Assembly: GCA_013115125.1 (NCBI GenBank)
Contig: JABANN010000158.1
Span: 1-59,185 of the forward strand
Source: Perkinsus olseni
Lineage: Eukaryota
Length of the DNA stretch: 59,185 nt
Direction of reading: 5' to 3'
Below, piece after piece: positions 16,617 through 46,850 of the stretch (within the stretch, counting starts at the first letter, position 1; every line of letters starts with the position of its first letter). A program made the translations under genes and the position numbers. Under the pieces are notes generated by a model. That model saw only the letters and a list, made by a program, of their open reading frames with translations. It did not search any database and was not told the DNA's origin.

Positions 16617-19600
16617 TCATCTCTGACTAGGGCAACAATTATACACACACCCAGCGCTGGACGGGTCGCACTCCAATAACGAGGCGGCGCCGTAACCGCA
16701 GGCGTTCTCGGCCTGCGCAGTGAATGTTACATTCGCCGACACCGAGGGTCGCGGCCATTGGTGGTACGCGGTCGTGCCTGAGACCGGTAGCTCCTTTCGT
16801 GTCGGCAAGAAGACGCTTACTGTTGGTGCTGGTGCATTGAGCCACGCTGGTGCTGCAAATCTTATAGCCGCTTATGAAGGACCCACCCGCACTGGCTGGC
16901 GGAGACCAGCTCACGGCGATGAACGTACCCGTCTGAGGAGAATCATGACCGAATTGCAGTGGAGCAGGCCGGCCCGGGAGACTACCGTAATGTTGAAATT
17001 GGTGGGCGCTGAAGGCAGATCGCAACTGGTGGCCGAGAAGGCGGTGCTGAACTCCGACCAATCCTGTCGTCTGTTCCGTGCCCTCGCTCTGAACTGCCAC
17101 GTTACTCCGCTGGTCAAGTTAACCTGCAATACACCCAGCTTAACACACAGCAGTGGCCACAATCACCGCTCTACCTCAACCCACGGGTCTGTACCATTAT
17201 ACAGAATCTGGTAAGACGTGTCATTGACCCCACCCTGTAGCTGATACCTGCACCCACAACGGCCTCACGGAGATGAGGAAAACCTGGCTGGCACTACTCG
17301 ATGTTCGCCTGGTCGTCTCCGCCAGTATCAAACACTTCGCTCCACCGAAGCTTGATGGTGCCGGCACGCGGCCAGTCCGTGTCATTGCGCCAGATGGTAG
17401 CGGCAACTCCTACGCGGTACACTTTCACTCAGCAGCAGAGGGGCGGATACGCCCACCGTATGAAGGTCGATCCAGCGTCCATCCAGAGAGGTCAAGGTGA
17501 TTATCGTAGTCACTAATCAAGGCCTTGGACGGCTCACTGCAGTCGGATACCCACCTAAAGACATCAACACCTGACCGCACAGGGATCGATACCAGCAGCA
17601 TCACCCGAGAGAGTTTTCCGCCATCACGCACAGTTGGTACTGCTTCTTAGGCGCTAGGCTCGGCACCTCAACTGTGGTGATGTTGATCTGAGACGTGAAC
17701 ACCATGCCCGAAGGGGACGAGGCAATTTCCCAGGACAAGGTCACAACCCTGCGGGCTACACGAACTACGGCACGCCCGGGCTGTAAGTGATAAAAGCTGC
17801 GCCTGGGTGAAAGGGACCCGGACCATTGAAGTAAGCATCTTACATCAGAGGGGGGCGGGCTGCCGATGCTGCCCATCCATGTATTAGCCATACCCACTCC
17901 CACTTCCCACAGCTTGAACCGATACCTTCTCAGTGGTATACCTGACCAAGCTCGGTCAGCAGCAGCAGCAGCAGAATTACCCCCGGACGCCCACCATTAG
18001 AGACCGCGGCCGTCCACTGATACCGCAGCGTACTGCTGTTGCTTGCAAGAGTGTTAATGGGCTGTGTGGGGACCCCGGGAGAGCTGCCAGCCGTGAAGGT
18101 AACGATGTCACTGAGGGGCCCTTCCCCAATAGTGTTCACAGCCGATATACGGATCTGATAGTCCGTACCGCTGACGAGCCCAGTGAGGGTACAAGAGGTC
18201 GGATCTGTCAGCATCGAAAAGATGATATCAGCATCATCGCCTAGCCCAGACCGAGATCATCACATGGAATGAGGTCCCTTCCACAAGTCAAGTCTGGCGT
18301 GGCAACGTCGATGGCTGTGGTCGGGCCAGTGTTGCGATACACTCGGTAGCCCACAACTGTGCCGTTGTTCATGGCTGGCTGAGTCCAGTTGAGGCCAATC
18401 GTCGTATTCGAGGACGACAAACCGGCAATCTGCCATAACGCAAACCCTCAAGAGTCGACTACTGCTGTCCCTCCTACCTGACTGGGTACTGCCATCTTCT
18501 CGGGCACGCTGGCACAGCTCAGCGTGACTGAGGCGGAATCTCGGTAACCCTTCGTACTGTACACTCGCAGGTAGTAGGATATCTGATCAAACCAGACAAG
18601 TCCAAATCTGTGGACTCAACCGAAATTCCGGTAAGCTTCGAAAGAATAAAAAGAAGCGCTTGGAGACACCCATCACGAGCTGAAAGCGGGCAGACCACCG
18701 AGTACTGCATACTGCTGCGCAGCCGTACGTTTAAGTTTACGCCGTAGGTTCCCTCAGAAATGCATACAATCAACATAACCCTAGTCAAGTTAAGAGCCTC
18801 GGAAGAGGTAGTAGCCAGGCACCCACGGCTGGATAGAAACTCAATCGCCCTTAGTCTCAGCATCACCATCGCTATAGCCCTGGGTGTGGCCTACCTGCAG
18901 AGTAGCGCTCTGCCGACAGTCCATGTAGTGCTGCATCGCCCAGGACGCTGTTAGACTCGAATCGAAGGGGCTTGTGAGGTTGAGTCCAGGTGGATCCAAG
19001 TAGGGATAGACACTTTGCCAGGTGAGACCCGAGTGTTGGGCGAAGAGGCGGAAGCCTGTGATGGGACAGCCGTAGCTGACCGGTGCCAACCACCCGATCA
19101 GGTTGTGTGTGGCATTGCCATCAGCACGGAATGGAGGATCGGGCTGCTCCATCTGCTTGCAAGCACGCACCTGTCACGAAGATGTAGGAGCCAGGGATCG
19201 AACCCGCGACCTCCCTCTACCTCAACAATCTCGCTCCTGTTCCCTTCTGCAGCTGCGCTCTTCACAGCAACTTGGAAGTAGTAAGCCCGGCCAGCCACTA
19301 TACCGGTGGTAACCCTGTACGTCCTGGCTGCAGTGTTCAACACTTCGTCGTAGAGGCTCAGGCTCAGGTTGCTCGAACCCATGTAGATCAGAGTCGACTT
19401 CAACGGGGCGCCGTAAGTCAAACTGTTGTTCGGCACGGTCCACTTGATACCGACAGAGGTATCGCCTGATAGACAATGATGCTATCAACATTATAGTCAA
19501 TATAGACATAAATAAATAGTCATTATACGACACTGACCACCATCTACCGCACGCACTAGCAGTAAAGGGGAACTCACTCGTCGCGTCCTCGTCCTCCTCC

Positions 19601-22600
19601 ACCACTGGTGGCTGTGGTCTCTCAGAGCACCAGACTCGACTGACTGGGGAGTAGAAGCCTGGACCTCCCCCATTCAGTGCGGCAACCTGAAAGCCTCCCG
19701 CTTCGCCCCGGCGAGGGCGGGCAGGCCTACCTTGACATAGGTGTAATTGTTGTGGAGGTTATAAGTAGTGTTAGCCGCATCTCTGACGAACATACAGTCG
19801 AAGGAGAAGTATCGCGAGTATGCCGGGACGGCCAGGGGGTAACCCATGTTGTCTGGGGTAATGCCGGTGGAGACCTGTACACAGTGGCAGCTAACCCGAT
19901 AGCAGGAGGGAAGTAGGATCTCACATGCCAGCCTATAATCGAGCTGCCGCCATTGTCACCCGACCAGGTCCAAGTGACGGTCATGGTGGTACCAGCAACG
20001 GTGTAGTTGTAGTAGGTCGGGGCACTGGGAGCAGAGGGCATCGCTGCCGCCAAGTGGCTGGCTATTGGTGAGCTCAAACTGGTGCCCGTCTCACTCACAA
20101 CTCTGTAACGGGTCCGATACGTTCGACCTGATCAGAGACCAACCACCTTCATTCCCACTAACGGCCCTTTTCACGCGGATGGCAGCACAGCGGGCCGAAC
20201 CGGTATAGCCCCACTCTACCCGTAGTGAGACCTTCTATCGTGTAAGACCGCTGCGTAGCAGACCCTATCTTGACGGTGGTGTACAGACCATTGAGACCAT
20301 CATCATAGTCCACCTCGAAGCCTCTGACGGAGGCGCCATGAAGGCCCCCAGGCGATGGCCACTCGAGTCTCATCGAGGTCTTCGAAGAATACAACCGATC
20401 CACGGACAGGCCGGTCGTCGGGGTATCGGGCTTGTCCGAGCATCTGACAACGCAGGTAGACTTATTAGTATCAAATACTGAGTGTACCGATCTGAAGTTA
20501 CTGCAGTGTATCTATCAACACATAGGCTACTGCTAGTTCTAGGTAGTTTACCAGTCTGGTAAGCACCAGTAGCCTAGTAGTGCTATTGCTATATCGATGA
20601 TGGGTCTAAATACGCGCCCTACTGATATGATAGAAGACGACCCAGAGCCCACACAGTTCCAGATCTCAAATCTCACCTCCACTTGATATGATCGCTCCTA
20701 GCCGAGGTTCCTGCAATGTTGGCAGCCGACACCGCCAGGCAAAGATACCCCTGACTGAAGGAGCCAACCAGGCCACTGATTGTTGTGCAGTCCAGGGTGT
20801 GATTGAGCACTCCGCCAGAAGCGAAGACCGTCGCCTGGGCAATGCCGGGCCAGCTGTTGCAGTACACGTCCCCCGTGGCGTGGATGTAATAATAGTTCAC
20901 CTTCGCTCCGCCGTCCGAGACACCGTTCATGTCCCACGACAGGCTGATAGAAGCATCGGTGGAGTTGATGACAGTGAGGCCGATCGGAGCCCCCGGGGGG
21001 TCGGCCGCAGAGATGTTGACGACATTAGACTCGGCGCCCACTCCCGACTCAGAAATCGCCTGGACTTTGAAGAGGTAGAAAGCACCGGCAGTAAGGCCGC
21101 TGGCTGTGAACTCGAGCTGGCTGCCGTCGTTAATGTGATGCTGCGTGAAGGGACCTCCAACGCCGTTGTCAACATAAACGATCCAGCCGACCAGACTGCA
21201 GGAGTGAAGACCGGCAGTTGAGATGGAATAGCTGACTGTGATAGAGTCGGCGCTGCGACTAACCCTATGTGGTGGTGACGGTTGATCCGGCGTGTCACAG
21301 CACCGCGTTGTGACCACATCACTTCGGGCGGACTCACCTGAAAAGAAAGATACTCATCATCGCTGATCGCAGGATACCACGATTGAGCAGCCCAAATACG
21401 ACGAGGCCTCTGAGACTTCACGCATGTGAAGGGTCTAGTATTGATTGCATGTAAAGGGGCCTACCTGCTAAGTTGGTAGCTGTTACGTAGAAGTAAACAT
21501 ACTGTGCTTGCGTGCAGCTGGTAGCGAGGACCAGGATATTGGGAGCGATCGAGGAGGACGCCGTCGACCAAGTGACGCCGAAGTCAGTAGACTTGTAAAC
21601 AGCGTTTGAAGTAACCGGCGACCCGCCGTTGTAACCCGTGTTATTCCACCCGATCGTCACCGATGTATCGCCAACGCTCATAACCCTGACGTTTCTAGGA
21701 GCCTCCGGCACAGCAGCCGCCACAACAGAAACCGTGGGAGACCAGCCGCTACTGCCAGATTCCGTCCGAAGTTGGTACGAAACCAAGTACGTGAGACCGG
21801 CTTGCAGCGAGGTGAACTGATGCGTGGTCTGCACAGTACTATCGATATCGACACAGGACTTGTCCGCAGTGTTGCTGTCATCATCGTCGATACAAACTGC
21901 GATGCCAAGGTACTTGGCGCCGTAGAGGTCCGCAGTGGCGTGAGGGAGACTCCAACCCACAGTGATAGCAGTGGCTGAGGTAGAGACTAAAGTGGGCGCA
22001 GTCGACGGCGTACGAGGAGGTCCACTGCAGTGGACAGCAACCTAAAACGATGACCATACATCACGACAGGCAACAACTCTACGCGCTGTGAACTCACCGG
22101 TGGACTCTGGGCGCTGACCCCCGCCATGTTCTGTGCCGCTACTGCGAACCAAACGTATAGCATGGAGCTTGCCACCCCACCTACAACAGCGCAGGACTGC
22201 ACGTGCGTCCGACCCGAAAAGTTAGTCGCCGCGCCGTCGATGGTGGTAGAATGGTTGAAGCTGCTGCCATCAGTGCTCGTGTAGACCAACCAGGCCGTGA
22301 TGGGACTGCCACCGTCCACACCATCATGGTCCCACTCGACGGTGATGGCGTCATTGGTAGTGTCCGTAGCATGAAGGTTAGTCGGGGCCGTTGGAGCATC
22401 AGCTGCAGTCGCCGCCTCGGACACTGGGCTGCCACTAGAGCATCCCACCACGCTGCAAATCTCCACATATGCTCGGTAGCTGTGACCACGGACCACTCCC
22501 GTGGGGGTCCGCAACCACGCTGTGCTTGTGTCGTACACTCTGAAGACTGTATACTCAGCATCATCATCGTCAAGGTCGTCAATAGAAACCGTCCAGCCTG

Positions 22601-25600
22601 TATGAGCCACACTGTGCAGCTCCGCCACCGACGGGGACGGCAGGTTCACCGTCAAGAGACTGCCAGTCGCGGTGATGTTCGGAGCAGTAGCCGGTGTGTC
22701 AGGCTCAGCCGCACAGTAGGTCCCCAAGGCCCCCGAGTAAGGGCCCATGGGGTCCGAGCCATACGCCCCGCCAACCCCATTGCTGGCAGCGACCTTGACC
22801 ATTATGTAGCTAGCAGCAGTGCAGCTTATCGTCTGTGTTAACGTACTCGCTGCGACCGTCGAGTCGAGGCTGTAAGAGCCACCGCTGTCGACCGAAGTGT
22901 ACACGAAGAACTTTTGTATCGGCACTCCCCCGTTGCTTCCCGGGAACGTCCAGGCTACAGTCACGCTACCGTCAGTCGAAGTGCTCAGCACGGGCGCCGA
23001 GGGAGCGTCAGGCACGCCACCACACGCTAAGTCAAGGTGGCTGCTGTAGCCACCACAGCCATTCAGGCTGCATGCCCGGACCTTTACTCGGTATACATTG
23101 GCCGACGTCAGTCCACTGAGGACAGCTGACTGGCCGCTGCCGCTGATGATTAGCTTGTGCTCGACGGAAGGGTCCGAGGTGAGATCGATGTACACGACCT
23201 CAAAAGACACGACCGGGGCCGAGTTGGCCGCTGGCACCGCTGAACTCCACTCAATCTCAAGAGTCGTAGCGGTACCTCCGGCGAACTGCAATGACGATGG
23301 TGCAGTGGGAAGGTCCGAGACCATCAGCCTAGCAGTCGGGCTGGGAGCGCTCCAACCATTGACGTTAAAAGCGCGCGCCCTGATGCAGTAGACGACGCCT
23401 GCGGATAGTTGAGGGTAGTTGGTAGTAGTGAGCGCTAAGCTTCCGGCCAAACGAGCTGATATGAAGGTGTCGTTGCCGGCTACATTGCACGGGCGAATCA
23501 AGATTTGGTACTCGAGAACAGGCAGGCTGGAGGACTCTGCCGTGCCGTGGGCTACTGAGAGGCTGAGCGATGGTGTGACCTGGCCACTGATGAAGGTAGG
23601 GGCGGTTGGTATTGCACCAGGCGGCGAGCCCGCAGTGAAGGTGACGTTGGCCTCGGGGGCAAAGCTGGCATATGCGCCGTTGTACGCAACGACCTTGAAG
23701 GTGTAGCTGTGGCCGGGTCCAAGGCCTGTATGGACGTAGGAGATTACGCTTGGGCCGACCGTCTTGACGACGGTGAAGGGACCGCCGGAACCCTCGCGAA
23801 GCGACACTTCATACCTGCCGAACAGGGATTGAACAAGACGTGGGAGACGAGTAACACTAGACGGCAAGTGGCTGCTGCTCCTGGAAGGCACGCAGCGAGA
23901 CGGAACCCAGGAGGCCACTGAGTGGGCCAGTAATACTACCACAACTAATCTTCGATCACACGGGAGTTCTACCGATCACGAGTATCCAGCAGGCAAATTT
24001 GCGTCGAGTACGGCTAAGAGCTTCTCACCTGTCTAGCAGACAACCACTGCCCCCTGTTGAGCCGCTGGGTGTCCACGATATCCTCGCCGTGGTATCAGTC
24101 CGTTCGCTCGCAGTGACGCTATCGGGAGGGGATGGAGGCCCGCAGACTTGATAGTTCAACACAGGAGAGCTAGCGCCAGCACCAACTGCGTTCACGGCTT
24201 CGACGACGAACCTGACAATATACATCCGCATTGAAAGCCTCCAGTGATGCAAGCCCACCTGTAGTGCTTGCCTACGGTAAGGCCACTGCCGACCACCGTA
24301 GTGAGATCCGTCCCTCCGCTGTAAACACTGGTGGTGATATCGCCGAGGTTACCGTCATCCCTATACACTCGGTACTCCGTCAAAGCCATGCCTCCAGTAC
24401 TGTCAGGGGCAGTCCAGTGTAACTCTACAGCGCTGTCGGCTCCCGTCGGGGGTCCCACACTAGGCCGGGCCATCCTACCCGGAGCTACGCAGCAAGTCAC
24501 CGTGATGTACTGGTCCTTACTACTCTCCCCTACAGCATTGACAGCAGTGGCTCCGAATCTGTACGTCTCCGATGGCGTCAGGCCGGTGACCACAAAATCA
24601 GCAGCCGATGGATCCGAGCCGTCATATACCAGCACGTCCAAAGCCGTCGCCAAACCGCCTGCCGATCGATACAACTTGAAACCGGTCACGGGCAGGCCAG
24701 CGCTCGGCGCCATGACCGCTATAGTAGCGTTATAGACCCATCGAACCCTGACCGCCGAATCACCGAGGCGATCACTACTGTCGGCGTAGATGTCCAGCGT
24801 GTAGGGCTGCTGTGGCGCTGAGGCAGCGTGGATGTAGGACACAGGTGACCAACAACAGTCCACTACGTCGGCCAAGGCATTAGTCAGGGTTATATTATTG
24901 ACGCCTCGAACCCGGAAGCCATAGCGCAACCCCGGGGTGAGACCAGCCACGGGGGAGGTCAGCGTGGTCGGGCTCGCTACGGTGGTCCACTGGGAGCCTC
25001 CAAGTCCATCGTCCCGTTGAAGTTGGTAGTTCAAAATCGGCGACCCTCCAGTGGAGTTACTCGCCGTCCACTGTACCTCCATATACGTATCATTGCTGCT
25101 TACCCATTGGACAGGCCCAGGAGCACTGGGAACGCCAGCCGCGCGCGCCCAGATGATCGATGATGGAAGGCCCACTATAGAGGTATTCGCCGTCTGCTGT
25201 GTCTGGAAGTTGGCGCTCCTCACCTTAAGACAGTAGCCACCGGTGTCCCCTGCGTTGTAGTGGTAGCTTCTCACGTCCCCAACGACCTCCCCTACGACAT
25301 AGTAGGTCACCGAGTCGCACCAGTAAGATGCCTCCGACGCAGCGGCAAGGATTTGATAGCCGAGAATCGGACAAGCACTAGTCACCATCGTAGGAGGACT
25401 CCACGCCAGGGTGATTTGTCCAGATTCCCGCTGGCTCGGAGCAACATCGACCGGCGGTGGCGGCAGCTCGCATGCTCTGTACGTGGCTGTAGAGCCCCGG
25501 GCGCTCTCACCTACCACATTAACCACACCCATCTGGAAGCGATACTCGAATCCACCGCTGAGCCCGGCAGCGATGCACAGCGTAGGCGTTAGCGAGTCAC

Positions 25601-28600
25601 AGACCATCTGCGTAACTGCTCCTCCTCGACCGTCGTCCCGGTAGACACGGTAGCTAGTCAGGGGACTACCGCCATCATCAGACCCAGAGGCCCACTGGAG
25701 TGTGACAGAGCTCGCACTGGTACTGACCAACTCCAAGGCTGGCACCACTGGAGGGACCGTCGCGACATACTCGGCCTTCACCGAGGACCGTGTGCAGCTG
25801 CCCGACGGATATGCGCTGACTACATTGCAAGCCCCGACCTGGAAGTAGTACAGGGAGCCTGCGCTGAGGTAGAGCATCCCAGACACAGTGCCTCCGCCAA
25901 GCCACGCACGGGTCGTGATGGCCCCGGCAGTGGTACCATGGTAGACTTCATAGTGCGTGATAGAGCTTCCACCGTCATCAGAAGGTGCGTCCCAGGCGAA
26001 CGATATGTTCGTGCGAGATCTCGAGGCCACCCGAAGATTCGTCGGAGTGCCGGGCAACCCAGCAGCGATAACAGTAACGGTACCAGACTGCGCACCCTCG
26101 CCTGCCTCGTTCGACGCTGTCACCCAGTACGTGTACTCAGCGCCGGTAACTATACCGGTCCTATGCTCGGCGTAGCGCTGCGTTGCTGCTGCGTCATGGA
26201 CCACGAAAGGTGCCGCATTCCCAAGACTAGACCGCGCGTACACCTTGTAGCTGACCAGGGAGGCGCCATTGATCTGGGCCGGAGGGTTCCACGTAAGACC
26301 GACATAAGATCTGCTCGAGTTCGATCTGTCCAGGCCCGTCGGGGCGCTGGGTGGGAGCGCACAGTAGCCGGTAGCAACCGTGCTGTAATCCGACCATTGA
26401 ACGAGGTTCTCAGCCCGCACTCGGAAGGAATAAAGATTCCCTGTGGTGCAGCTGTCAAACACAGTGCTGACAGTTGTGGCACTTGTGGTAGCGATGAGCA
26501 CCCAATAGCCCAGGGCGTGGTCCTGGACCTCCACTTGATAGTGCAGCACCGCCAGCCCACCATCATCGGCCGGAACTGACCACCGGACCTCTATCTGTGT
26601 AGCAATGCTTCGGAGCAGCTGAACATTCTGCGGCGGCGAGGGTGCCTCAGCAGCGTACGCGCACACGTCGCTGCTTCTCGTACTGCTCTCCACCAACATA
26701 GCCCCTCCACCACCATCACCAACAGTCCCTTCATTATCAGCCGACACGACGAAGCAGTAGCGCTGACCAGCCACCAGACCGTCACTCAAGTCAACGTTAG
26801 CACTCGTGACCGTAGGAACCGTACTGGCTACCACACGGTCAACAGCCCCACCGTGGCCGTCGTCCATGAAGACAGTGTAGCTCTTGACGCTGCCACCACC
26901 AGATGAAGATGCCCAGCTCAGACCAATGGCCGTGCGGTTGCTAAAGGACACGATGGGAACTGACACGGCCGAAGGAGGGACTTGAGCCCACACAGCGGTC
27001 TCCTGCGTCCAGGTGGACAGGCCTCCGTTGCTGACCGACCGAACCTGCACGGTGTGACGAGACTCGGCCGTCAGGCTGGCGGCGGTGTAGGCCAATGAAG
27101 AGTCAACAGTGTGTTCAACACCATCCCAACGGACGATGTACCTGACACAACACCGCCCTTCACCGCCACAGGACAGTCGTCAACTCACGAAGCAATGGCG
27201 CAGCCTCCGTCGTCCAAAGGGCTCAGCCAAGCCACAGTTATCGAAGAGAGGCTCCTCGCCGAGATGTAGAGGCCCCTCGGGGCCTGCGGCGGTGCGCACG
27301 CCCACAGCGTCGTCGCTTCCGAGTGATTACCTACATAAGAGATAACAGTCCCGACAGACAACTGTTCACGTCCGGCTATTCACAAACGTACCAGTCCCTG
27401 CATCGTTCTTGGCAGCAACTCTGAAGCTATACTGCGCTCCCGCCGTCAGCATGGAAGCGACATAGCTCGTAATAGTGCCGGAATATACCTCCTCCCAAGT
27501 GCCGTTGTCACGCTGCAGCTCTAAACTGTAGCTGCGTACCTGCCAGGGCATTGGGAACCTCTAGGGAAGGGTAACCTGCCTCCTACCGTAGCTCCCTGAT
27601 CATCAGGCTCAGCCCACTGCAAGAAGGCAGACGTCCGCGTAGTGCTGGTACACAGCGGGGACGAGGGCGTACTCGGAGACCCTGCCGCCAGCAGAGGTGG
27701 TGAGGTCTGTGACGGGTGCCCAACACCAACAGCGTTCTCAGCTCGGATGGTGTACGTATAAGCAGCGCCTGCCATAGGAAAAATCGCAAATCATCAACAT
27801 TTGCCTTGAACAACCTCACCCGCAGTGACATCCCCATCCCTATACCGCAGCTGCATCGTGTCCTGTACCGCAGCCGAGGCGTCCAAGGGGACCATGACCA
27901 TCAACGGTGGGTGCAGCGACCCATCCGGCATCGTCGGGGCCGAGTTGTAGTAGTAGCCCTCCACGTAAACCCAGACGTAGAAGCTCTCGTTGTGGTGTAG
28001 CCCGCAGCCGGAAAGGCCAACGTTCTGCTGTACGTTGGTGACTAGCAGGCCGGATCTCTTGCAGTCCGTACCACCCAGGGCACCCTTGCCCATCCGGGCA
28101 TGGGACTCGGTCATAGCCGGAGAGCCCCCGTCAGCCTCAGACCTAACCACGAACACCCAAAGCCTTCCTCGCGCCATCTCTGGGACAAACGACACCGTGA
28201 AGCCATCAGTGGTAACCGCACCGGTGAGGTAAGGGTTAGTAGCAAACCTATTGGAAACGACGTTCGGTACGGCCACATCCAGGCGACTGAACTCTCCATC
28301 GGTCGCTCCGGTTGTCCCATCGTCAAGGTAAACATGGACAGTGTACAGCCCACCAGCCTGGTACGTTCCCAAGAACTGCCACGCTACCTGCACTCCCCCA
28401 GTGACGCCCACACCCTGGAAGACAGCAGTAGTGGCTCCTGGCGCCGTCGGCGGCGACACCGATTTCATCTGAGCGGCCGAGACCACTGCTCCCCGGAGGG
28501 ACACGATGCCCCAGGCCATGCCGCTGGACGATGGGGTGAAGGACATCGTTATAGCGGTAGTAGTAGGGGTACTCGTCAGCAGCGGGGCCTTGGAGAAGTC

Positions 28601-31600
28601 ATTGGACTTGCCGATGAAGACGGGTACGGCCTCGCTCAGCTGGCCACTGCCGCCAGCTAGCTCATCGTCAACATACACGAAGAGGGCGTACTTGGTGTTC
28701 CTGGTGAAGCCACAGCCAGTGAAGTTAACAGAAGTTACATGATTTGGCCAATGGCCCGTGCTGGCGATGGCTCCTCCAGTGATCTCGCACGTTGCTGCCA
28801 CAGTAGCCGCATAGATCTTCGGAGAGTCCCGGATGGCTCGAGCGTCGACCCGACTGGAGTTTGCCTCCTGGACCACATACGCCCAGAACTTGCCCACGGC
28901 CGCTGGGGTGAATTCGAAGTTAAAGCCATCGGGCGACGCAACGCTCGTCACCCGCGGGCCCAAGATGAAGCTGTTGGCAACCTCTACCGAGAAGTCAAGT
29001 TGGTCCAGCTCGCCGTCGAAGTCCAAGGTGCCCTCCTCAACGTAGGTGAGCAAGGTGTACTCCGTTCCATTGTGAAGGTCACAACCGGACAGCTCAACCA
29101 TCACGGACGTCAGCGACGGGCAGGCCTGGTCGAACTTCATGCAGCTGCCAACATGGCCTGTGGCCAAGTCCGATGAGCGCATCTCCCGTGGGCCGATTCG
29201 ACTGGCGTTGACCCGGGAAGCTATCTGCATCCAGTAGCGTCCCGCCTCTACACAAGCGAGCTCAACGTAAACACCGTCCGAGGAGGCCGGCCGTACCATC
29301 CTAGGCCGAACGTGGAAGGTATTGGATCGGCGTACAGTGAAGTCATTGGACCACCCAATTGTGCCGGCTGTCCCTCTGGCCTCTCCTGACAAGTAGACAA
29401 CCACGCTGTATCTACCATTGAACTCAGCCGTGCAGTTGTGAAGCTCCCATACAGTGTAGCTCGAGTTCGCCACCACCTCCGGGCCCCGAGTGCAGTTGTT
29501 GTCCGACTGGACCCCCGCCAAAGGGTTACTCCTTTCACTGAAGGCCATGGTACCAGACGCCGTTAGGCCCGATAACTTGTGGGCCTCGACGACCATGGCC
29601 CAGGCGTAGCCCGACCGAGCTGCCCAAAAACGTACTGTGGTGGAATTGAACCCGGCATCAGTTGAGGCATTGACCTGTGGCAGTCGGAGGAAGTGATTAT
29701 TAGTCCCCGGCGCCACAGTGAAGTCCAATGGCTCAGCGACCTCACCCAGAGTGTCACCAAAGGTACCAGAGGCGTAGACCAACAGCCTGTACTGCCTTCC
29801 ATGGACCAACCGGCAGTCCCTCATGGTGAAAATCTCTTCCACCTCGCCGAAGATACCAGCCCTCTCGAGTCTGCACTGCGTCCCGGCAGCAACTCCTGCT
29901 GAGCCGTTCATGATGGTCTCCTTAGTAACGGCCGTGTAACCGTCCCACACCACCGCCCAGATGTAGCCGGACCGGACGACCGTCACACCGAAGGTGACAA
30001 CATCACCGTCGGGCGTGGCGGCAATAAACGGCGTTCCCTGATAAAAGGAGTTCGCGGTCGTGTTGGTAAGGTTGAAGACACTAACCCCACTCTGATCAGT
30101 CACATTGACAATCGCCAGCTGGCCGTCCAAGTTGGCGCTGCTGGTCGCGTCAGACACATAGACCACCAGGTGATAGCTCCCGGTCACATTCAGTGAGCAG
30201 TTGGTGAGACTCCTAATAGTTTGGCTCGGAGCAATCGACGCTCCGTCGTAGTAGCAGCCCTCAGCCCCCACGCGACAGGTCAAGGCCTTGGCCGAGGCGG
30301 CGGTCTGGTTGTAGCGGCAGCCCTCCGGCACGATGAACATCCACAGCTTGCCAACTGTACCGACTCTCGTATCAACATCACAGCCAGCAGCAGTAACGTT
30401 GTAGACCTCCGGACCCGACCCCAGGAAATAATTGGAGCCCTTGGTCACGAAATCGATCTGCTCCAGAGTTCCATCGTCACCACCAAGAGTATCTTCTACA
30501 TACAGGTTAAGCGTGTACCTAGCCCTCTCACCAGACCACAGGCCACACCCACTGAAGACGTTGAGGCCCCCACTAAGGTTAGTAGCTGCAGTCACGCTGA
30601 TGCTCTGTCTATAGCATACCGTCGAGTAAAGCGGTGGCACGGCCTTCATCGTGGCTGGGGTGATGCGCTCCCGATCCTCTCTGAGGCTCACCACCATCCA
30701 CAGCATACCCGACCGGGCCGGGGCGACACCCTCAACTGTCACTGTGGTATTAGACGGTGGATTCGGCCAGATGTATGGTCCAGGTGGTCTGATGAAGCTG
30801 TTCGACTTGGGCGTTCGGAGGTGTACTCCTGGCAACCACAAAGAGCCATCGCCGTAACCGGACATGCTGGTCACGTAAACATAGAGGGCGTAGTCTCGGT
30901 CGTGTTGCATCTGGCAACCGGTAAGGTAGGCAGTCTCGTTCCCGACTGTCACCAATGCTCCAGCGATTCGACAGCCGACCCCTCCAGTGGCCCCGACGCC
31001 GGACATGACATCAGCGATGGTCGGCACAGCGGCGGTGTATCCACGGACCATCGCCCAATACAGTCCCGCCTCCTCGGCCGAGAAGCTGAACCCGAATCCA
31101 TCCGAGGTGACTGGTGTCACCACTCTCGGATGCGCCACAAATTTGTTAGAAGTACCGGCCACGACCATGAAAGACTGAGTGAAGGCCAGGCGGCCGTCGT
31201 GCAAGGCGTCCTGGGACTCCACGTAGACGGCAGCGACGTACTCGCCCGAGTGCTCCAACGAACAGTTGGTCAGCGTGATCTCAGTCAAATTGGTGACGAG
31301 AACTCCGCTCCGCCTACAATCCGTCGTATGGCCCACCCCATAAGTAGCATTCTTGACATTAGATATATCCACCAGGCCAACCGCGCTCGCCCGAACGATC
31401 GATATCCAGGCCTTACCAGTCCATGCATCGAGATCAGGCCCGCCTCCTCTCAACCACACCGGGTCAGTCGGCGCAGCCGTGAATTTGACCGTGACGCCAT
31501 CACGCGTGGCTGAGCTCGAAACCAGCGGGCCCACGACGAAGTCGAACGATGCTCCCGGCACGGCCACCTCAACAGCTGGCGACAGGCTGCCGTCCGACAG

Positions 31601-34600
31601 GCCATAGGAGTCCTCAACATACATGTAGAGATCGTAGCTCTTACCCTTCTCAAGGCTGCAGTTAAAAATGACGTACACGGGGTCCGCGCCGATGCTCATG
31701 TTATCATAGCGACAGCCCGGCCCACCTACCGCATAGGTGCCCGCCTTGACAGCCTGGGCGTCAACTGCGGGGCTGTCTATTTTGCTGACCACAGAAGCGT
31801 ACATGTAGCCAGCCGAGGTGTTAGCTTGGAAGCTGACTCTGAGCTCTCGCTCAGTGGGAGGGTTGTGGAGGTACGGTAGGGAGACGAAGGTGTTGGACGG
31901 TCCGAGGCCGAAGGTGACAGGTGGTGACACGGTACCGTCACCGAGACCAAGGGAGTCCTCCACGTAGACGAAGGCCGCATACCGATCACTTCGAGCCAAC
32001 GAACAACCCGTGATCGAGAGAACACTGGCCGTGGCACCAGTGACAGCCTGACCAGCTACCCCGCATTCTACCGGCTCCTGTGGACTGAGCTCTTGCCTCT
32101 TCAGCTGCTCCAGAGACACGCACGCCGAAGATTCCTCGGGGACCACTGCAGCCCACAATCGACCACTACCTACCACCGTGTAATTGAGCTCCACCCGACC
32201 GACCGTAGGGAAGTCAATAATGTTGGGATTGGCCAGGAAGAAGTTGGACGTGTTGTGAGGGGCGGTACGAAGAGCCAGCGGCTCGGACAAAGTCCCGTCA
32301 CCGTAGCCTCGGCCGTCCTCAACGTACACTACCGCCCAGTAGGCCACCCCAGGCGACAGGCCGCAGGTCCTCAGCGTTACAATCACATCCTCATCTGCGT
32401 TGACAGGTCGGTCGGAGAATCCACAAAGGGACCCTTGCGACAGCTTTACCCCATCTACCCTCCTGATGGTACTAACAGCTCCACCCTCTACAACCGAGAC
32501 CCAATATCTTCCCGTAAAGACCGGCGTAAAGGCCAGCTGGACCAAGTTCCATTGCGGGGTTGAGTACACCCTCGGACCGCGGTATCGGCTACTCTGGAAG
32601 ACGTTACTGGGCGGCACTGTGAACTTGAGCGGTGCACTCAGACTACCATCATTGCGGCCCAAGGCGTCCTCGATGTAGACGAAAAGCACGTAAGTTGCGG
32701 AGCCGTTGAAGTTGCAGTCGGTGAGGTTCCTGGTGGTCACATTCTGGACGACCCACAGGCCCTCCGTAGTAGTCCCACACTGGCCATGGCGCCTGTACCC
32801 GACCTTCACCGCAGTAGCGTTGACCTCAGCCATATGAGTCTCCGACACCACCTGAGGTCCGATATCAACAACCGTCTACGGACCACGTTGGCTACTTTCC
32901 TCAACCCCCAGCGAACGATATTGTCATAGCAATAACACCGATGAAAACTTGAAAGATTTTTCCGAAGTCACCCTGGCTGCTAGAAGAGTGTTATACTGGT
33001 TTGAACGCGCGCGGCATTCCAGCATTCCCCCACGATGACCCACCTGCAACCAAGCCTTGCCATTCCCAGCACTGGCGCCGAATCGAACCTCCACGCTGTC
33101 CGTGGTCACCCCAACCACTCTTGGGTCCTCCCAGAAGTAGCTCGATGTCCTCGTCAGAGGCACTGGACTGCCGGACCACAGAGCTCCATCGCCATCACCA
33201 CCATTTAGACCCTCCAGGTAGACATGGGCGAAGTACTGCTGTCCCGGCCTCATCTCGCACTGGTGGACCGCGACCCGAGTAACTTGCCCGCCGGACACCT
33301 GCCTCTTGGCTTCCCGACAGGCTTCCTGAGAATAGTCGCTTCCTCCAACGACGAAGGCAGCGGCGAAGGGACCCCCACCTGCGGCCAAGCTGGGTGCTTG
33401 TTCCGTCCATAGACAACATCGAAGGCCGTCTGTGTGCCGTGGGCTGCTGTAGTCAGCTGCAACCACACGTAGCCGTCCTCGGCTGGGGTAAGTTCCACAG
33501 TGAAGGTATGAGAGCTCGTCAAGCCTACAGCGATGCGCCCAGGTTCGATCCCCAGCGACGACATCATCGGACCACTTACCCACAAATACTGGAGAAGCCT
33601 GGAAGGCGTTGCTGATAGGATAGACCAGCTGACCATCTCGATAGACCCTGTAGCCGAGCACAGCAGACCCACAGTCATCACTGGCCGACGGCCAGCTTAT
33701 CTGAAACATTACACGCAAATTGTTTAAATCAGGACAGTCGAAAATCGCCAAGGGCCAGCGGTAGGGCACACAAATGCATCACCAGCTCGTATAACCAACC
33801 GTCACCTACATCTAGTGTCCACGGGCTGCCAGCAGTCTTGGTCGGTGCCGTCGATGGGCTGGCCGGCACACACCTCATCAGCGCTGTGAAGGCACTCGAG
33901 TTGGTTCCCTGTCCTCCGCCATTGTCCGCCCCAACCTTCCACCTGTAGTAGTTGCCGTCCAGCAGGCCGGTCGCGGTGTAGCTCAGCCCCGAGCCCTGGT
34001 AGGCCAGTGCGAACTCCCCACCCCTGCTGCCGTCGTCAATGTACAGTCTATAGGAGCTGGCACCAGCAGCCTCGTCCCAGCTCAGGCTCATCCTCCCACG
34101 ACTGCGGAGGTCCCTCACGTCCAGTGCGCTCGTCTCCACGTTATACTTGAGATCGAGGCCCGTCGGGGCCGCAGGTGGCTGGACGCAGACGAAAGCGGCA
34201 GCCGAGGAGTTGGCGCCCCATCCAGCCTGCGTGAAGGCCCCCGCAGTGAGCGAATATGCGACGCCCGTCTGACAGGGCAAAGTAGCCACTGTGGTGCCAG
34301 CTTCCACTATGCTACTGTACACCGTACAAGTGTCGTTCACGATTACCCTATAACCCAGTAAATACGACCCGCCATCGTCGGCCGGCTCGTCCCACTCAAC
34401 CACCGTCATCCCTTCACCGCCACTGGATGCTCTCACATTCCTCGGAGGGCTTGCCGTATCAGCCGCCATGCAGGACACAGGTATCGTGAAATTGCCCGTC
34501 CCCACAGCGTTCACAGCGGCAACCTTGATACGGTAGCTCCAGCCCTGGGTCAGCCCCGTTAGAGTAGCGGACAGGCCGGACTCGAACCTCGCTCGGCCGA

Positions 34601-37600
34601 AGCTGCCACCTCGACCATCATCAATATAAACGTCGTAATTGATGACGGCGGCACCCCCGTCAGTAACAGGCACGGACCATCTGAGACTGCAGGTTGACCT
34701 GCTGGTCGCGAAGACCTCCAGGCCCGTCGGCGCACCAGCCACGGTAGCCGTATATCCGCTGACGTAGGCACCGTAGGGACTCCACTCAGCCAGGGCCCGA
34801 TTCCGAGCCGCTACACGGTAGACACACTGTGAGCCCGACGTAGTCGGCACGGCAGTGTCGTTATACGACAAGAGGGGCCAGGAGGAGTTAAGGACGGCAA
34901 AGCCGCTGCCGCAGTCCCTTTCGACCTTATATTGCTCCACTACAGAGCAGCCAGTGTCCGCAGGGACCTCCCAAGCCACTACGATTTCCTCAGCGGAGCT
35001 GCTGACCACTACCATCCTCTGCGGAGGGCTTGGCGGTACGGCCAGCTGCACGGATACGATGGCGCTTCTAGGGCCGAGGCCGATCGTGCTCTGAGCTGCC
35101 ACTTGGGCGTCGTACACTTGACCACACAACAAGCCTGTGGTGTTGAAGGTCCTGACATTGGGGACGGATGAGCCATCGAAGACCAGGGTAGGTACATCAT
35201 TGTAGCCATTGTTGACAAAAAGTTGGTATGACACAGTACTTGCACCACCATAGTACAAACCCGACAAGGCGTCCCATTCCCACACGAGGCTGTCCACAGT
35301 CGAGGACCTCCTTCGTAAATTTTGTGGCGCAGCGGTCGGAGGCTTGCCCACAACCTGTGACACCAGAGCACTCCACTGGCCAGTAATATTAACAAAATTG
35401 ACCGCCCTGACGCGGAACTGGTAAGTGACCCCTTCGGACAGGCCACAGACGGTCGTGTTGAGCCAGTTGGCGCCATAGCCCATCGAGGCGTCCGTCCAGG
35501 AAATGTACAGCGGCTCCGGAGCGTAGTGGAGTTGGTAGTAATTTATCGGACTACCGCCATCATCGCTGCTCGGGTCCCACGTCACAGCGACGCAGGTATC
35601 GCTGTAGTAGACAGCACTGACATTCACTGGCGGCGAAGGCTGATAGGCCATCAGCGTGTAGAGGACCGTCCTGTTGCCCACCTCCGCTGAGGACTTGCCG
35701 ATGATGTTGACCCCCAGCACGTAGGCCCTGTAAGTCCTCCCGAGCGCGAGCCCAGTCCTCACGTAGTACCTCGTATTAGGCTTATTGAGGCCATCGTAGA
35801 CCAAGGCGAAGGGCCCTCCCAAACCATCATCGCCCCACAGCTCGTAACCGCGGAAGACAACAGTGGCCTCACTGCCGATGCCAGCGACGGTCGAGTTGAG
35901 TGCATCCCAAGTGTAGCGAATGCTGCTGTTGTCCACAGTCTCCCCACCGAGGCCATCCACGCGACCAGGCAGATCGGCATTACGAGTATACAAAGCGTGG
36001 CTGTCGCTCGACCACCCCTCGCAATTCTTAGCTCGAACCGTGAACAGCCATGGACCTCCGGCGGCAGTGCAGTTCTTCCCGGTAATGGTATACGACGAGG
36101 CCAAGGCCGTGTTGACCGAGCCCGTGAGCTCCACCAGCTCAGTAGAATACTCGTACACCGCGTACTTCTCAATCTCGCACCCGCCGTCATCATCGGGAGG
36201 AGCCCATCCGATCTCGATTGTTTCCGCGTCGCAGTCCGTAGACACGACGAACGGCTTGCCAGGGGGGCCAGGGTCAGCAACAGTCCGAAACGTGGCCATG
36301 TCGCTGAGCGCGCTCTCTCCAGCCATGTTAGTGGCGCTGACTTGGAACGTATACCTCAGGCCCGGCTCAAGACCGTCGAACTCCCTGTGGGTGGCCGGGC
36401 CTTCGAAAACAGGCAGCCTACTGCCCCCTCGTCCGCTGTCCATATACAGGGTAAATTTGAATAGGTCGTTACCACCATTATCTTGAGGTTGCTCCCATAC
36501 GACGTGTAAGGCGGTACGGCTCCGATACACCACCCTGACTGATGCCGGCTGGCTCGGCGGGCTGGCGGCCACCAAAGTGGCGACAGGCGACCGGGGCGAT
36601 TCCACCCCTTCGCTGTTGACCGCGATCGTCTGGTAGCGATAGAGCCTGCCAGTGGACACAGAAAGGTCCTGGAAGTCGAACAGGTAGGGACTGCTGAGCT
36701 CAGCCATGAGCACAGAGATGGAGGAGGTAGTTGGAGGGTCATCCCGGTACACTCGAAGGTAGCGGATCGACGCACCACCGTTGTCAAGGGGAACGAACGT
36801 GTTCAGGTGGATGAAGCTCATTGAGGTATTTCCTGAAGGAAGGCAATGCACGAGACCCGGCGCTCACCTCCCCTACTTCTAGTTGGCGCAGGCGGAGCGG
36901 CGGGTGGGCCGACGATGGTTCGATGGATAGTGTTGGTACTGAGCTTGCCCCCTCGACTGTTGTTGGCGGCGATTCGAAAGCCACACCTGAACCCGAGCTT
37001 TGCAGCGCATTATTGGTCAAGACCCCCACTAGTACCTGGCACCCGTTGGCAGGCCAGTAAATGCGTAGCTGGTCGCCGTAGACGCTACTGCCGTGTTGAC
37101 GGGCGTGGTGACATCACCGCCGTTGCAATCATCCCTGAACGCTGTGAACCCTATCAGAGGTAGCTCGGCCGAAGATACGCATGTCGCGGTACTCGCCGTA
37201 GTACCTGACCAAAGGATCGCTCCCACCACCCGCGACCAGTAAACCGAGCGTCAGTACCGAGTAACATACAGCATACAGTAGATAATAGAGACTCTAGCTA
37301 CGGAGGGGAATACAAATTTTTATATTCCTGAAAGAATTTCTAACTCCATTGTTGATCGGGGTGCAAGCCCCCCACCGGCGGTGGCGCTATATACCAGGAA
37401 CTGCAAGGTACTCGATGCATCAATTGGAAGATTCCAGGAGCATTCCATTCGGGATTGTGAATCAACTAATCTGTAGATATCATTATGACATACCAGTTTA
37501 CGTATCATATTGATGAAAGATTACAAAGGTTGATCGAAACCCCATTCCCTTCACTTCCTCGACGATATTGTCACTTACAGAGGCTCCAGACTATGGTCAC

Positions 37601-40600
37601 ACTAGTAGGCGTCCTGAGGTGGTCCTCAGCCTGAATCGTGAAATCTCCAGGGAGGCTGCCCGTGACGAAGGTCTCAATATCGGACCATTGGCCGGGGGTA
37701 GTGCAGGCCAGTGGACAAGGGTAGCTGGCCAGGGTGGTGTTCTGTGGGCAGGGACCGTGCGCTCGGACTCGGACGCGGTAGTATTTACTAGGCGTGAGGC
37801 TGTGAATGACGTAAGATGGATCTAACACGATAACAGGACTGGCAACCTCGGTGACAGCAACGAACGTCCCCCTATGGACCACTGGAACAGTGGCGTCCTC
37901 GGGCTCTCCCCAACGCACGATCCGAGCCCGACTCACCAAGGACGCTGCAGGACTTGATGCTGACTGAGAGGCTACTGGCCGTCGCGTCACCGTTGTCATG
38001 CTCCAGCTCCCACATCACAATTGGGCCCGAGTCTGCCGTAGTCGGCGGGGTCCACTTCAAGGCTATCTCGATGTACGGGCTGCCGCTGTCGTACTTGTAC
38101 TCGGGCCGACCTGATGACCATTCAACAGTAAGGACGATCGAGGGAATATCTTAGGTCGGTACCGGCCCGAGACAAGTCATGGGCCGAGCGGTCGCGTACG
38201 ATGCATCCACGACTTGGTATCCGTCCCTAGCAGCCTACCGGGCTTTCCATGGGGGACTCCTGCATAGAGGGCCACTCGAGAGGTCTTCGCCCCCTCCCCC
38301 GCCACTGTTATCGCAGCTACGGCTATCCAGTAGTAGCGTCCGGGAGTGAGACCTGAATGAACACACGCTCCAGATGCACGAGACTTAGGTTCAACAGAAG
38401 AGAACTCCATGACACCAGCCGACTTCTGCCCGTCTCACCTGTCAGATTATACTCGAGGACGTTGGCTCTGGTTCTCCCATCATACACCATCTGCAGCGGC
38501 AGGCCGTCCAAGCCGTCATTAGCGTAAACCCGATACCCGGTGATAACGCATCCACCACTATCCACCAGGTTGAGTATAGGGAACCAGCTGATGCCGATCA
38601 CCGTCGGACTCCAGGCTGACGAGACTCTTGAGATGTTACTAGGGGGGCTAGGCACCGCACACGCGTACAGAGTGCGATGGCCCGAGGCGTCTCCGTCGCA
38701 ATCAGTATACTCGTCCGTGTCGCAGGTCGTGAGATCATTCACCGCGTTCCTCGCATACACCCGATAACGATATCCAGTGCTAGCCACCACCCCCGCCGCG
38801 TCGGTGTATTCCAGAATATTCGCGAACATAGCCGCGATGGTCGTGAGCACCGACGAGCCGGCCGGCGCCCGCTGCACCACGTAACCCGTTAGAGGCAGTC
38901 CGCCCGAGTCTGCCGGTGGTGACCATCTCAGGGTGATGGCCGTCAAGTTGCTGCTAGCGAGCTCAGGAGGGTCGGGCCTGTAAGGTCGTCTCCCACAAGG
39001 CTTCACGCAGCACGTTGAAGACTGGTCGCTCTCGCCAGCAGCAGACAGCGCGGTGACGCGCAGGTCGTACCACTCGCCCAGCGTACAGTCGGTCAGCGTG
39101 TACCAGAGCGTGGCGGGATTACCGGTGCCATCGTAGGCAAGCCTGAAGTTAACATAAACCTTATAGCCGGTCACAGTCGGTGGAGAGCTCGGCGTCGCCC
39201 ACGAAATCGAGATAGAGTTCTCGCTACTGCCCACAAACGACGCAATCGGTGCCGCATTGGGCGGGCTGGCCATTAGGTCGTTCTCCTGACTGTAGAGGAC
39301 CGCCCCCACAGTCACGTCGTTATCCGCGAAAAGACGGTATCGGTACACTTCGTAAGGCCTTATGTTCACCACATCAGTATACGTCAGATTGGTGATACCA
39401 GTCATCACAGTACTCCACGCGCCTCCCATTTGCGATCGCTCCAGCGTGTAGCGCAAGTTGCTGGACTTCCCGCCATCATCAGCAGCGTCCCACTCCACCG
39501 TAATGAAGTTCACAGTGGTGTTGCCAGTGCCTTGCCGAGGACGTCCCGGCCTCCCTGGCCTGCTCGCAGCGTAGGCGAAAATATCTTCGGACATAACTCC
39601 ATCGCCAGCCTGATTGACCGCTTGAACGTGGAACGTGTACAGATCACCCGAGGTCAAGGCCGAGGTCCGCCCATCCGCCAGAGTCGGAGCGTACTCGAAG
39701 CTGAGCACCGAGCTCCTGTTCCGACCATCGGAGACCAGCTTGTCCACAGGCGTATTGTTACCGCTATTGACCCACACCTTATACCCAGATACAATGCTAT
39801 CAACAGGAGCCCGCCACTTCAGAACTATGCTCGTGTTAGAGCTGCTCAACACCCAGCCATGCTCCGCCGGCACAGGAGCGTTCGGCGGGTCCGCAGCCAG
39901 CAGTGTGATACGGGTACTTCTAGGCCCCTCACCAGCCGCATTCATAGCCACCACTTGGAACCGCCAGATGTCGTTAGGAGAATCGACCTCAACGAACGGT
40001 CCGAATAACGTCAGTGTTGTGATGCCCGCGTTAGCAGTGTCCGCGTAGCTCTCGTAGCTGCCGGGAGAATAATAGACCCTGTAGCGCACCAGCGAGGTGC
40101 TGCCGACCTCAGTAGGAGGGTCCCATTTTATAGCGATCTTGTCTCGAGCTTGAGTGACCGAAAAATCTCGGTGGACGTTCGACACCGGGCCCGGTTTGAC
40201 CCAATCGCAGCAGCGGAACTCTGAGACGTTCGAGAGCGCCGAGTGGCCTACCCGAGTGTACCAACTTTGAGAGATCTTATAGACCCTCCCGTAGGTCAAG
40301 TTGCTGATGTGCACGATAGACGGATTAACGCTGGTGGCTTGAGTAACGGAGTTCCTCAGGACACCACTCCCCATGCCATCATTCCAGGCCAGCGTGTACC
40401 CTAGAGTCGGCGGCAACGTAGTCGAGCCGCAAGCAGTGGTTATCGGTGGCACCAGTGAGAAGGTGAAGCTTCCAGTTGGATCCACGCTCGAGGCCGCGGT
40501 GAGCACTGGCGGCTGTGGCGTATCAGGCAACGTGCAAGGAAATACCGTGATTTCGCGCGGCAAGCCCACCACAGTACTGGATGCCGTGAGCCGGTAGTAG

Positions 40601-46600: not shown

Positions 46601-46850
46601 TAACGACAATAGCTAGCCAAAACTGCGGTTGCTCGCACGAGAGCCTGGAAGCCCGCTGGGGCAGCGAAAGGAGCACCATCAGGGATGCATGCCGAGGTCG
46701 AGCATCGGACTTCGAATCGCCTACCTCTATGTTGCCACTAGTTGAGCTGACAAGTACTGGCGGGCTGCACTTCCCAATGCTCTGAGCCTCTACGGCTGTT
46801 AGCGCGTTAGCAATGATGAATAGCCCAACTCGCTTGGCCACCGACTCCAT
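16617..46850 (-). CDS. Giant multi-exon secreted protein: signal peptide, FN3 repeats, filamin-type Ig repeats with 3 PA14 domains, long FN3 arrays and ~15 novel ~125-aa repeats
   Basis: Start MESVAKRVGLFIIANALTAVEA. Co-oriented ORFs (45682-46566, 43724-44959, 38323-43674, 33729-36851, 27794-32851, 24192-27095, 21987-23942, 20673-21317 and others) encode FN3 motifs (W..P.DDGG.PI..Y; L.PG..Y.F.V.A.N..G) or filamin, PA14 and novel repeats. Several junctions were examined and continue the protein across GT-AG introns (e.g. ~37577/37203, ~33048/32854, ~27822/27770). Not every junction was checked. Confidence 0.7.
27887..33613 (-). repeat. ~15 tandem ~120-130-aa protein repeats of unrecognised family, consensus SNxF..xP.....V.F.....G..W..VV....C...C.L....Y..YVYVED..G..DG.LS.P
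   Basis: Thirteen full units and the end of a fourteenth are readable in ORF 27794-32851; the rest lie in exons at ~33050-33613. Confidence 0.85.
40830..45650 (-). other. Filamin/ABP280-like repeat region with three PA14 domains (~45395-44700, ~42855-42390, ~41295-40880)
   Basis: Filamin-like motifs AG....F.I...D.YGN...G.Y.V.Y....AG.Y.....GSPF. PA14 motifs GGL.G/A.Y(W/F), (F)SARW.G.I....TG.Y.F.V.AD..RL.(I/V)....L, and L.WS......IP...L. Confidence 0.8.

What the first reader, a model, noticed from the sequence alone, without database searches (positions are those of the whole stretch)
27770..33870. A ~1,900-aa cassette of ~15 novel repeats inserted inside one FN3 domain
Seen: the FN3 domain beginning RCVPASPSTAP...ISWPSASDDCGSAVLGYRVYRDGQLVYP breaks off after its N-terminal strands. 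About 15 repeats of a different ~125-aa unit follow (SNxF...P...G..W..VV...two Cys...YxxYVYVED..G..DG.LS.P). The missing FN3 half then resumes as QDTMQLRYRDGDVT|AGAAYTYTIRAENAVGVG. Inference: a whole tandem array was inserted into an FN3 loop and could form a looped-out side branch on a titin-sized extracellular rod. I cannot assign the repeat to a named family; its pattern suggests a disulfide-stabilised beta-sandwich with an acidic VED..G..DG loop that might bind Ca2+.
Basis: partly seen in the sequence, partly recalled or inferred. Interest (0 to 1): 0.8.

Follow-up and report, generated by a model that had tools for sequence, protein, structure and literature searches.

The report
Repeat array looped through split FN3
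In a giant, probably secreted protein of a shellfish-parasite protist and its relatives, one small fibronectin-type domain is cut in two by a chain of 15 further domains about twenty times its size, so the chain probably forms a closed side loop on a long protein fibre, an extreme version of a design known from bacterial adhesins.

Summary
Confirmed. On the minus strand, 15 diverged repeats (115-132 aa, 1,809 aa) sit in frame between two complementary halves of one FN3 domain of a roughly 8,500-aa PA14/filamin/FN3 protein. An NCBI Perkinsus olseni fragment is 96% identical. Put together in silico, the halves score like an intact FN3 and are as conserved as intact neighbours. The same junctions occur in homologues; five hold both halves, with inserts of 531-1,300 aa. 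No orthologue with this FN3 intact was found. The repeat has no Pfam name, but it is not a new fold. AlphaFold2 (pLDDT 91) gives an FN3-type sandwich with a helical insert and a cysteine pair, and it is homologous to Cys-poor units of bacterial surface proteins. Calcium binding is unsupported. Some homologues carry a second 2,100-2,240-aa array in another FN3 that is whole here, plus other nested domains, so split FN3 sockets recur in this family. Best reading: the halves refold in cis and the array is a closed side loop on a secreted fibre. Refolding was not modelled, because the folding jobs were unavailable. New variant of the split-domain design of RTX adhesins.

The parts
16620..46850 (-). 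Host gene: giant PA14 / filamin / FN3 protein, about 8,500 aa (estimate); both ends approximate
   Evidence: Pfam fn3, PA14, GLEYA and Filamin above cut-off in its ORFs; collinear tblastn chains of P0028, P0155 and P0192 from 46527 to 17993; signal-peptide-like hydrophobic stretch near 46850, start codon unverified
34203..34463 (-). FN3 n-2 ('site A'): intact here, but carries a 2,100-2,240-aa repeat array after strand A in homologues P0002, P0003, P0005
33897..34181 (-). FN3 n-1, intact
33810..33872 (-). Split FN3, N-part, first exon piece (strand A)
33701..33809 (-). Intron, 109 nt, GT..AG, phase 0; predicted, backed by unbroken homologues P0111 and P0155
   Evidence: not among the joints
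33614..33700 (-). Split FN3, N-part, second exon piece (strands B, C, C'); runs into repeat 1 inside the exon
27887..33613 (-). Array of 15 FN3-type repeats, 1,809 aa. Starts: 33613, 33145, 32608, 32251, 31897, 31546, 31150, 30805, 30436, 30067, 29713, 29326, 28978, 28606, 28255
33525..33579 (-). Intron, 55 nt, in repeat 1
   Evidence: joint in X1 contig, short side 28 letters
33326..33378 (-). Intron, 53 nt, in repeat 1
   Evidence: joint in X1 contig
32852..33043 (-). Intron, 192 nt, in repeat 2
   Evidence: joint in X1 contig, side 255 letters
27820..27886 (-). Split FN3, C-part, first piece (strand E), in the same exon as repeat 15
27769..27819 (-). Intron, 51 nt, GT..AG, phase 1; predicted, backed by unbroken homologues
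   Evidence: not among the joints
27695..27768 (-). Split FN3, C-part, second piece (strands F, G)
   Evidence: Pfam fn3 positions 61-81, E 0.0013, below cut-off
27387..27685 (-). FN3 n+1, intact, with a 47-nt intron (27586-27540)

Best explanation
The gene encodes a secreted, probably unanchored fibre of about 50 FN3 domains with N-terminal filamin-type and PA14 domains. One FN3 serves as a socket. Its strands A-B-C-C' and E-F-G fold together in the same molecule, and the 15 repeats between them leave and re-enter at the C'-E loop as a closed side loop or hairpin of about 55-60 nm contour (15 x ~4 nm, from general FN3 dimensions). The repeats are FN3-type domains with a short helical insert, probably disulfide-bonded and N-glycosylated. 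They act as a structural side branch whose length lineages change by gaining or losing inner units. If force unzipped the socket, the loop would be released as extra length. Shown: sequence anatomy, complementarity and conservation of the halves, predicted fold of the repeat, variable copy number. Inferred: secretion, refolding in cis, loop shape, structural role.
For: The halves are complementary and non-overlapping on an FN3 profile. Joined halves beat the best of 100 shuffled partners in 6 of 6 proteins (56.6 vs 32.8, 53.5 vs 37.3, 36.5 vs 30.5, 39.2 vs 32.6, 24.0 vs 14.4, and marginally 26.8 vs 26.6). Against P0155 the N- and C-parts are 40% and 32% identical, and four intact neighbours 33-47%, so the halves are still under fold-like constraint. 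The N-part/repeat junction is seen in 9 homologues and the C-part after the array in 13 (most of these seeded the profiles, while P0155, P0102, P0192, P0183 and P0024 were found independently; P0034 is a near copy of P0155). Insert lengths are 531-1,809 aa. The first and last repeats tend to match the first and last repeats of orthologues, and inner ones do not keep register. Site A gives a filled-versus-empty comparison in the same family. There are 31 N-glycosylation sequons in 1,809 aa, both Cys are 82% conserved in 435 units, and 7 of 7 homologues checked lack a hydrophobic C-terminal segment. Precedent for split Ig-like or FN3 hosts: PMC10865825 and PMC2577065 (passages).
Against: No orthologue with this FN3 uninterrupted turned up among the 270 proteins fetched, so insertion is inferred from the fold, not from an empty site. 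Sequence cannot tell pairing in cis from pairing in trans. Closing a loop over 15 domains with almost no linkers is entropically costly (inference). In a survey of 48,263 paired measurements, inserts were smaller than their host in 77% of events (PMC13114784, section 2.3). At site A the joined score beat shuffled A-strands in only 1 of 3 proteins. The start codon and signal peptide are unverified, and no location or function data exist.
Confidence: 0.6

Rival explanations
1. The halves pair in trans. The N-part of one molecule completes the C-part of another (strand complementation), the array stays roughly straight as a spacer, and the giant protein polymerises or cross-links into a mesh.
For: It removes the ring-closure problem, tolerates any repeat number (inserts of 531-1,809 aa at site B and 2,098-2,237 aa at site A), and predicts the same conservation of both halves.
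Against: No direct evidence. The same family holds single compact domains (YHYH, a Cys-rich unit) inside other FN3s, which reads more simply as in-cis sockets, as described for RTX adhesins.
Confidence: 0.15
2. The array is mainly a multivalent binding or decoy surface (glycan, host lectin or partner protein) displayed off-axis, as split domains display ligand-binding domains in bacterial adhesins; the loop geometry is incidental.
For: The host carries PA14 domains. Split domains in RTX adhesins project ligand-binding domains. The units are highly diverged (25% identity) and have an exposed helical insert.
Against: The conserved positions are core, Gly/Pro and Cys residues, with no invariant polar patch; the acidic motif is incomplete. 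Homologous bacterial units occur as long arrays beside other, named domains, which fits a spacer role. The 44 differences from the P. olseni fragment are spread over all 10 repeats covered.
Confidence: 0.17
3. The halves no longer form one domain. Each is a remnant or caps the neighbouring repeat, and the protein is a simple linear string.
For: The C-part alone scores only 4-12 bits in four divergent homologues.
Against: Each repeat is a complete seven-stranded sandwich. N-part plus repeat start scores far below N-part plus C-part here (33.5 vs 56.6). The halves are as conserved as intact domains.
Confidence: 0.06
4. Assembly or gene-model artefact, or two genes.
For: Two of the six introns were not seen as joints, and no listed contig spans the array.
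Against: Both junctions lie inside exons. Five homologues hold both halves and the insert in one chain. Two array-bearing orthologues are EukProt transcript assemblies (P0009, P0192).
Confidence: 0.02

Closest known systems
Split Ig-like domains of Gram-negative RTX adhesins (MpIBP, FrhA); PMC10865825, passages read
   Same: A beta-sandwich of a long extracellular rod is interrupted by a folded insert whose two ends return to the host, so the insert projects off the axis; PA14 domains occur in both kinds of protein.
   Different: There the insert is one ligand-binding domain. Here it is a head-to-tail array of up to 15 (site B) or about 18 (site A) domains, about 20 times the host's size, in a eukaryote, and with no recognised ligand-binding domain in this window's insert.
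Insulin receptor FnIII-2 with its insert domain; PMC2577065, passages read
   Same: An FN3 domain that carries an insert within its sequence.
   Different: That insert is small (about 120 aa, recalled), presumed disordered and cleaved. Here it is 1,809 aa of folded domains, with no R-x-K/R-R site in 5 of 5 inserts checked.
Cyanobacterial RNA polymerase SI3 insertion; PMC13114784, section 2.3 read
   Same: A multi-domain repeat insertion (630+ aa, 8-10 domains) with lineage-variable size.
   Different: SI3 is recursively nested, so its chain goes out and back by design. Here each unit is complete and sequential, so the array itself must bend back. The insert is also about three times longer.
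Fibronectin type III fold (PF00041; for example 5n48_B, 5kf4_A, 2ee2)
   Different: 7-16% identity, no Pfam hit, no strand-B Trp, two helices between strands C and C', and a Cys pair; some glycoside-hydrolase beta-sandwich domains tie in Z (8.9-9.0).
Unnamed Cys-poor FN3-like units of bacterial-type surface proteins (with T9SS tail, SLH or PARCEL/DUF285 domains)
   Same: Profile-profile probability 97.5%, E 5e-12, 109 columns; same length and tandem use.
   Different: 97 of 137 units lack Cys; they form a separate group on the tree (support 98); I saw no split-FN3 host around them in the architecture scans.

Membership tests
Repeat as FN3 fold | Seven-stranded 3+4 beta-sandwich that superposes on FN3 domains | tested here: met
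Repeat as FN3 fold | E-F loop Leu and strand-F Tyr (tyrosine corner; recalled feature) | tested here: met
   Leu 80% and Tyr 92% conserved in 435 units
Repeat as Pfam fn3 (PF00041) | Score at or above the 25-bit cut-off | tested here: not met
   No fn3 hit for ORF 27797-32875 or for any of 14 units; profile-profile probability to canonical FN3 0.5-1.5%. 12 of 13 Cys-poor homologues scanned pass as whole proteins.
Repeat as Pfam fn3 (PF00041) | Conserved Trp in strand B (recalled feature) | tested here: not met
   The conserved Trp (71%) is in strand C; strand B has Phe
Split-domain (A1-B-A2) architecture | Two complementary, non-overlapping host segments in order around a folded insert | tested here: met
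   Profile positions 2-45 and 57-91; joined 56.6 bits, reversed order 26.1
Split-domain (A1-B-A2) architecture | Host segments pack into one domain in three dimensions | not tested
Split-domain (A1-B-A2) architecture | Orthologue with the same host domain uninterrupted | tested here: inconclusive
   None for site B among 270 proteins fetched. For site A, three proteins are intact (window, P0155, P0028) and others are filled.
RTX-adhesin split domain with ligand-binding insert | Insert is a ligand-binding domain (PA14, sugar- or peptide-binding, vWA) | tested here: not met
   The insert consists only of the 15 repeats, with no Pfam or NCBIfam family at cut-off; binding itself was not assayed
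RTX-adhesin split domain with ligand-binding insert | Bacterial type I-secreted protein with RTX repeats | tested here: not met
   Spliced eukaryotic gene; no RTX family among the Pfam hits of its eight ORFs scanned
Calcium-binding beta-sandwich repeats (cadherin or BIg type) | Invariant acidic ligands in every repeat | tested here: not met
   Full acidic motif in 7 of 15 and 132 of 435 units; single positions 57-60% conserved. Metal binding itself is not testable here.
Titin or twitchin | Ig I-set domains and a kinase domain in an intracellular muscle protein (recalled) | tested here: not met
   fn3, PA14/GLEYA, filamin and other Ig-like models hit the eight ORFs scanned, with no I-set or kinase model; signal-like N-terminus

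The most novel reading that the evidence does not exclude
The split FN3 is a fastener rather than a passive socket. Its halves, held 5-18 rigid domains apart, either pair between molecules and build a self-assembling extracellular mesh or fibre, or act as a force-released latch that stores tens of nanometres of hidden length as folded domains. Either would be a way of building extracellular material that my ten literature searches did not find described for these protists.
Probability: 0.2. Interest if true: 0.85.

Novelty: new variant of a known kind. Interest (0 to 1): 0.62.

Why it matters
[quoted passage not shown] Here a host of about 95 aa holds 1,809 aa, and relatives hold up to about 2,240 aa at a second site. 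If the halves close in cis, this is a natural protein lariat tens of nanometres long and a direct test of how far apart two halves of a domain can be and still fold. It also defines an unnamed FN3-like repeat family (294 library hits) shared with bacterial surface proteins, and a conserved giant extracellular protein of a shellfish parasite and its relatives for which I found no paper. Annotation splits the gene into 'hypothetical' fragments.

Full report
Observation. The region lies on the minus strand inside a gene of about 30 kb. Six GT..AG introns placed by coordinates give 1,988 codons without a stop from 33872 to 27402. Between 33613 and 27887 lie 15 repeats of 115-132 aa, 1,809 aa in all and 25% identical on average. 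Each scores 54.7-85.6 bits against a profile of the other 14, and shuffles score at most 9.0. Contigs of one run (RNA by guess) show 7 joints, 4 of which are 4 of my 6 introns; the two introns inside the host halves are not listed. Both host/array junctions are inside exons. An NCBI fragment named Perkinsus olseni FOZ62_019372 is 96.2% identical over 1,146 aa, so the window comes from that species or a close relative.

The host. Pfam finds fn3, PA14/GLEYA and filamin domains in the flanking ORFs. Homologues P0028, P0155 and P0192 tile the gene collinearly from 46527 to 17993. An FN3 profile gives 21 pieces upstream and 30 downstream of the array and none inside it. I estimate about 8,500 aa by adding P0028's upstream part, the insert and P0192's downstream part. 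There is a signal-like hydrophobic stretch near 46850 (start unverified), and 7 of 7 homologues checked have no hydrophobic C-terminal segment. Secretion without an anchor is therefore inferred.

Is one FN3 really split? On a 92-position profile of intact domains, the N-part covers positions 2-45 and the C-part 57-91. Joined they score 56.6 bits; intact window domains score 35.7-92.2, though these are in the profile. In reverse order the halves score 26.1, and with a shuffled partner at most 32.8. The same test passes in 5 of 5 homologues that hold both halves, one only marginally. The halves are as conserved against P0155 (40%, 32%) as four intact neighbours (33-47%). A profile search of 1.84 billion proteins gave 294 hits, of which 150 were listed; a flank search added P0155, P0183 and P0192. 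The N-part runs into a repeat in 9 homologues and the C-part follows the array in 13. Most of these seeded the junction profiles, and P0034 is a near copy of P0155. Insert lengths are 531, 660, 980, 1,020, 1,300 and 1,809 aa. No homologue had this FN3 whole, so the insertion event is inferred from the fold. Whether the halves pack in three dimensions was not modelled.

P0002, P0003 and P0005 carry a second array of 2,098-2,237 aa (17-18 units detected) after strand A of the FN3 two domains upstream. That domain is whole in the window, P0155 and P0028. The join test there is weak (1 of 3 above shuffles), so the evidence is positional. Other FN3s of these homologues hold a YHYH domain or a Cys-rich unit. 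Terminal repeats tend to match terminal repeats of orthologues: first to first in P0155, last to last in P0155, P0192 and P0183 but not P0009. Inner repeats of this window keep no register, whereas P0002 and P0003 match 18 of 18. The family uses FN3 loops as sockets repeatedly, and array length changes between lineages.

Mechanism. Most likely (0.6) the halves fold together in one chain and the array forms a glycosylated, disulfide-stabilised side loop of about 55-60 nm contour on a secreted fibre, with a structural role. Rivals are a multivalent binding surface (0.17), pairing between molecules (0.15), remnant halves (0.06) and artefact (0.02). Location and function are untested.

Comparison with what is known. 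Split Ig-like domains that project one ligand-binding domain are described for RTX adhesins (PMC10865825, passages); earlier unchecked notes of this scan pointed me there. The insulin receptor's FnIII-2 carries an insert domain (PMC2577065, passages). A survey of 48,551 insertion events reports inserts smaller than hosts in 77% of cases and discusses the 630+-aa nested SI3 region of cyanobacterial RNA polymerase; the word 'fibronectin' does not occur in its main text (PMC13114784; abstract, passages and section 2.3; supplements not seen). Ten searches of open-licence papers (listings only) showed nothing on this protein or repeat. It works like a split-domain display but is not an RTX adhesin. 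The new element is a sequential array about 20 times the host's size.

Verdict. Real and conserved; a new variant of a known architecture. Interest 0.62, held down by the known precedent, the FN3 nature of the repeat, and the lack of a structural test of closure.

Noticed in passing
window 33579 (donor) and 27769 (acceptor), minus strand: Both introns are phase 1, so a splice between them would drop almost the whole array in frame, along with host strand E. No such joint is listed, and the chance of equal phase is about 1 in 3.
   Followed up: partly
P0002 3839-4265, P0089 713-1128, P0006 1996-2399: A YHYH domain of about 350 aa lies inside another FN3 of these homologues (Pfam hits for P0089 and P0006; sequences).
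   Followed up: partly
P0003 2183-2560, P0005 1352-1680: A Cys-rich insert of 200-270 aa splits a further FN3 that is whole in P0028 and, by tblastn position, in the window near 39420.
   Followed up: partly
P0002 ~3400-3590, P0006 ~1590-1750, P0089 ~320-470: The site-B insert ends in an extra domain of about 190 aa that looks CUB-like to me (recalled motif; no Pfam hit).
   Followed up: no
P0063, P0097, P0140, P0141, P0130, P0138, P0149, P0014: One to a few two-Cys repeats also occur outside split FN3 hosts, in unrelated architectures.
   Followed up: no
G000 contig C2642, about 20000-32000 (L012, L013): A second large FN3 gene with filamin- and PA14-like segments (by eye), with no repeat array in the part fetched.
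   Followed up: partly
window 28256-28606 (-): Repeat 14 has lost both cysteines together, as expected of a disulfide pair.
   Followed up: no
window about 15070-16210 (-): Protein kinase gene right after the giant gene (Pkinase E 3e-22); looks PKA-like to me.
   Followed up: no
window 13280-13927 (-), 56202-56666 (+), 3040-5289 (+): PB1 domain, BACK domain, and a 749-codon frame with strong negative GC skew and no Pfam hit.
   Followed up: no
P0270 residues 1-183: The NCBI P. olseni model begins with about 180 residues unrelated to the spliced model before it joins repeat 3, which suggests a mis-joined annotation.
   Followed up: no
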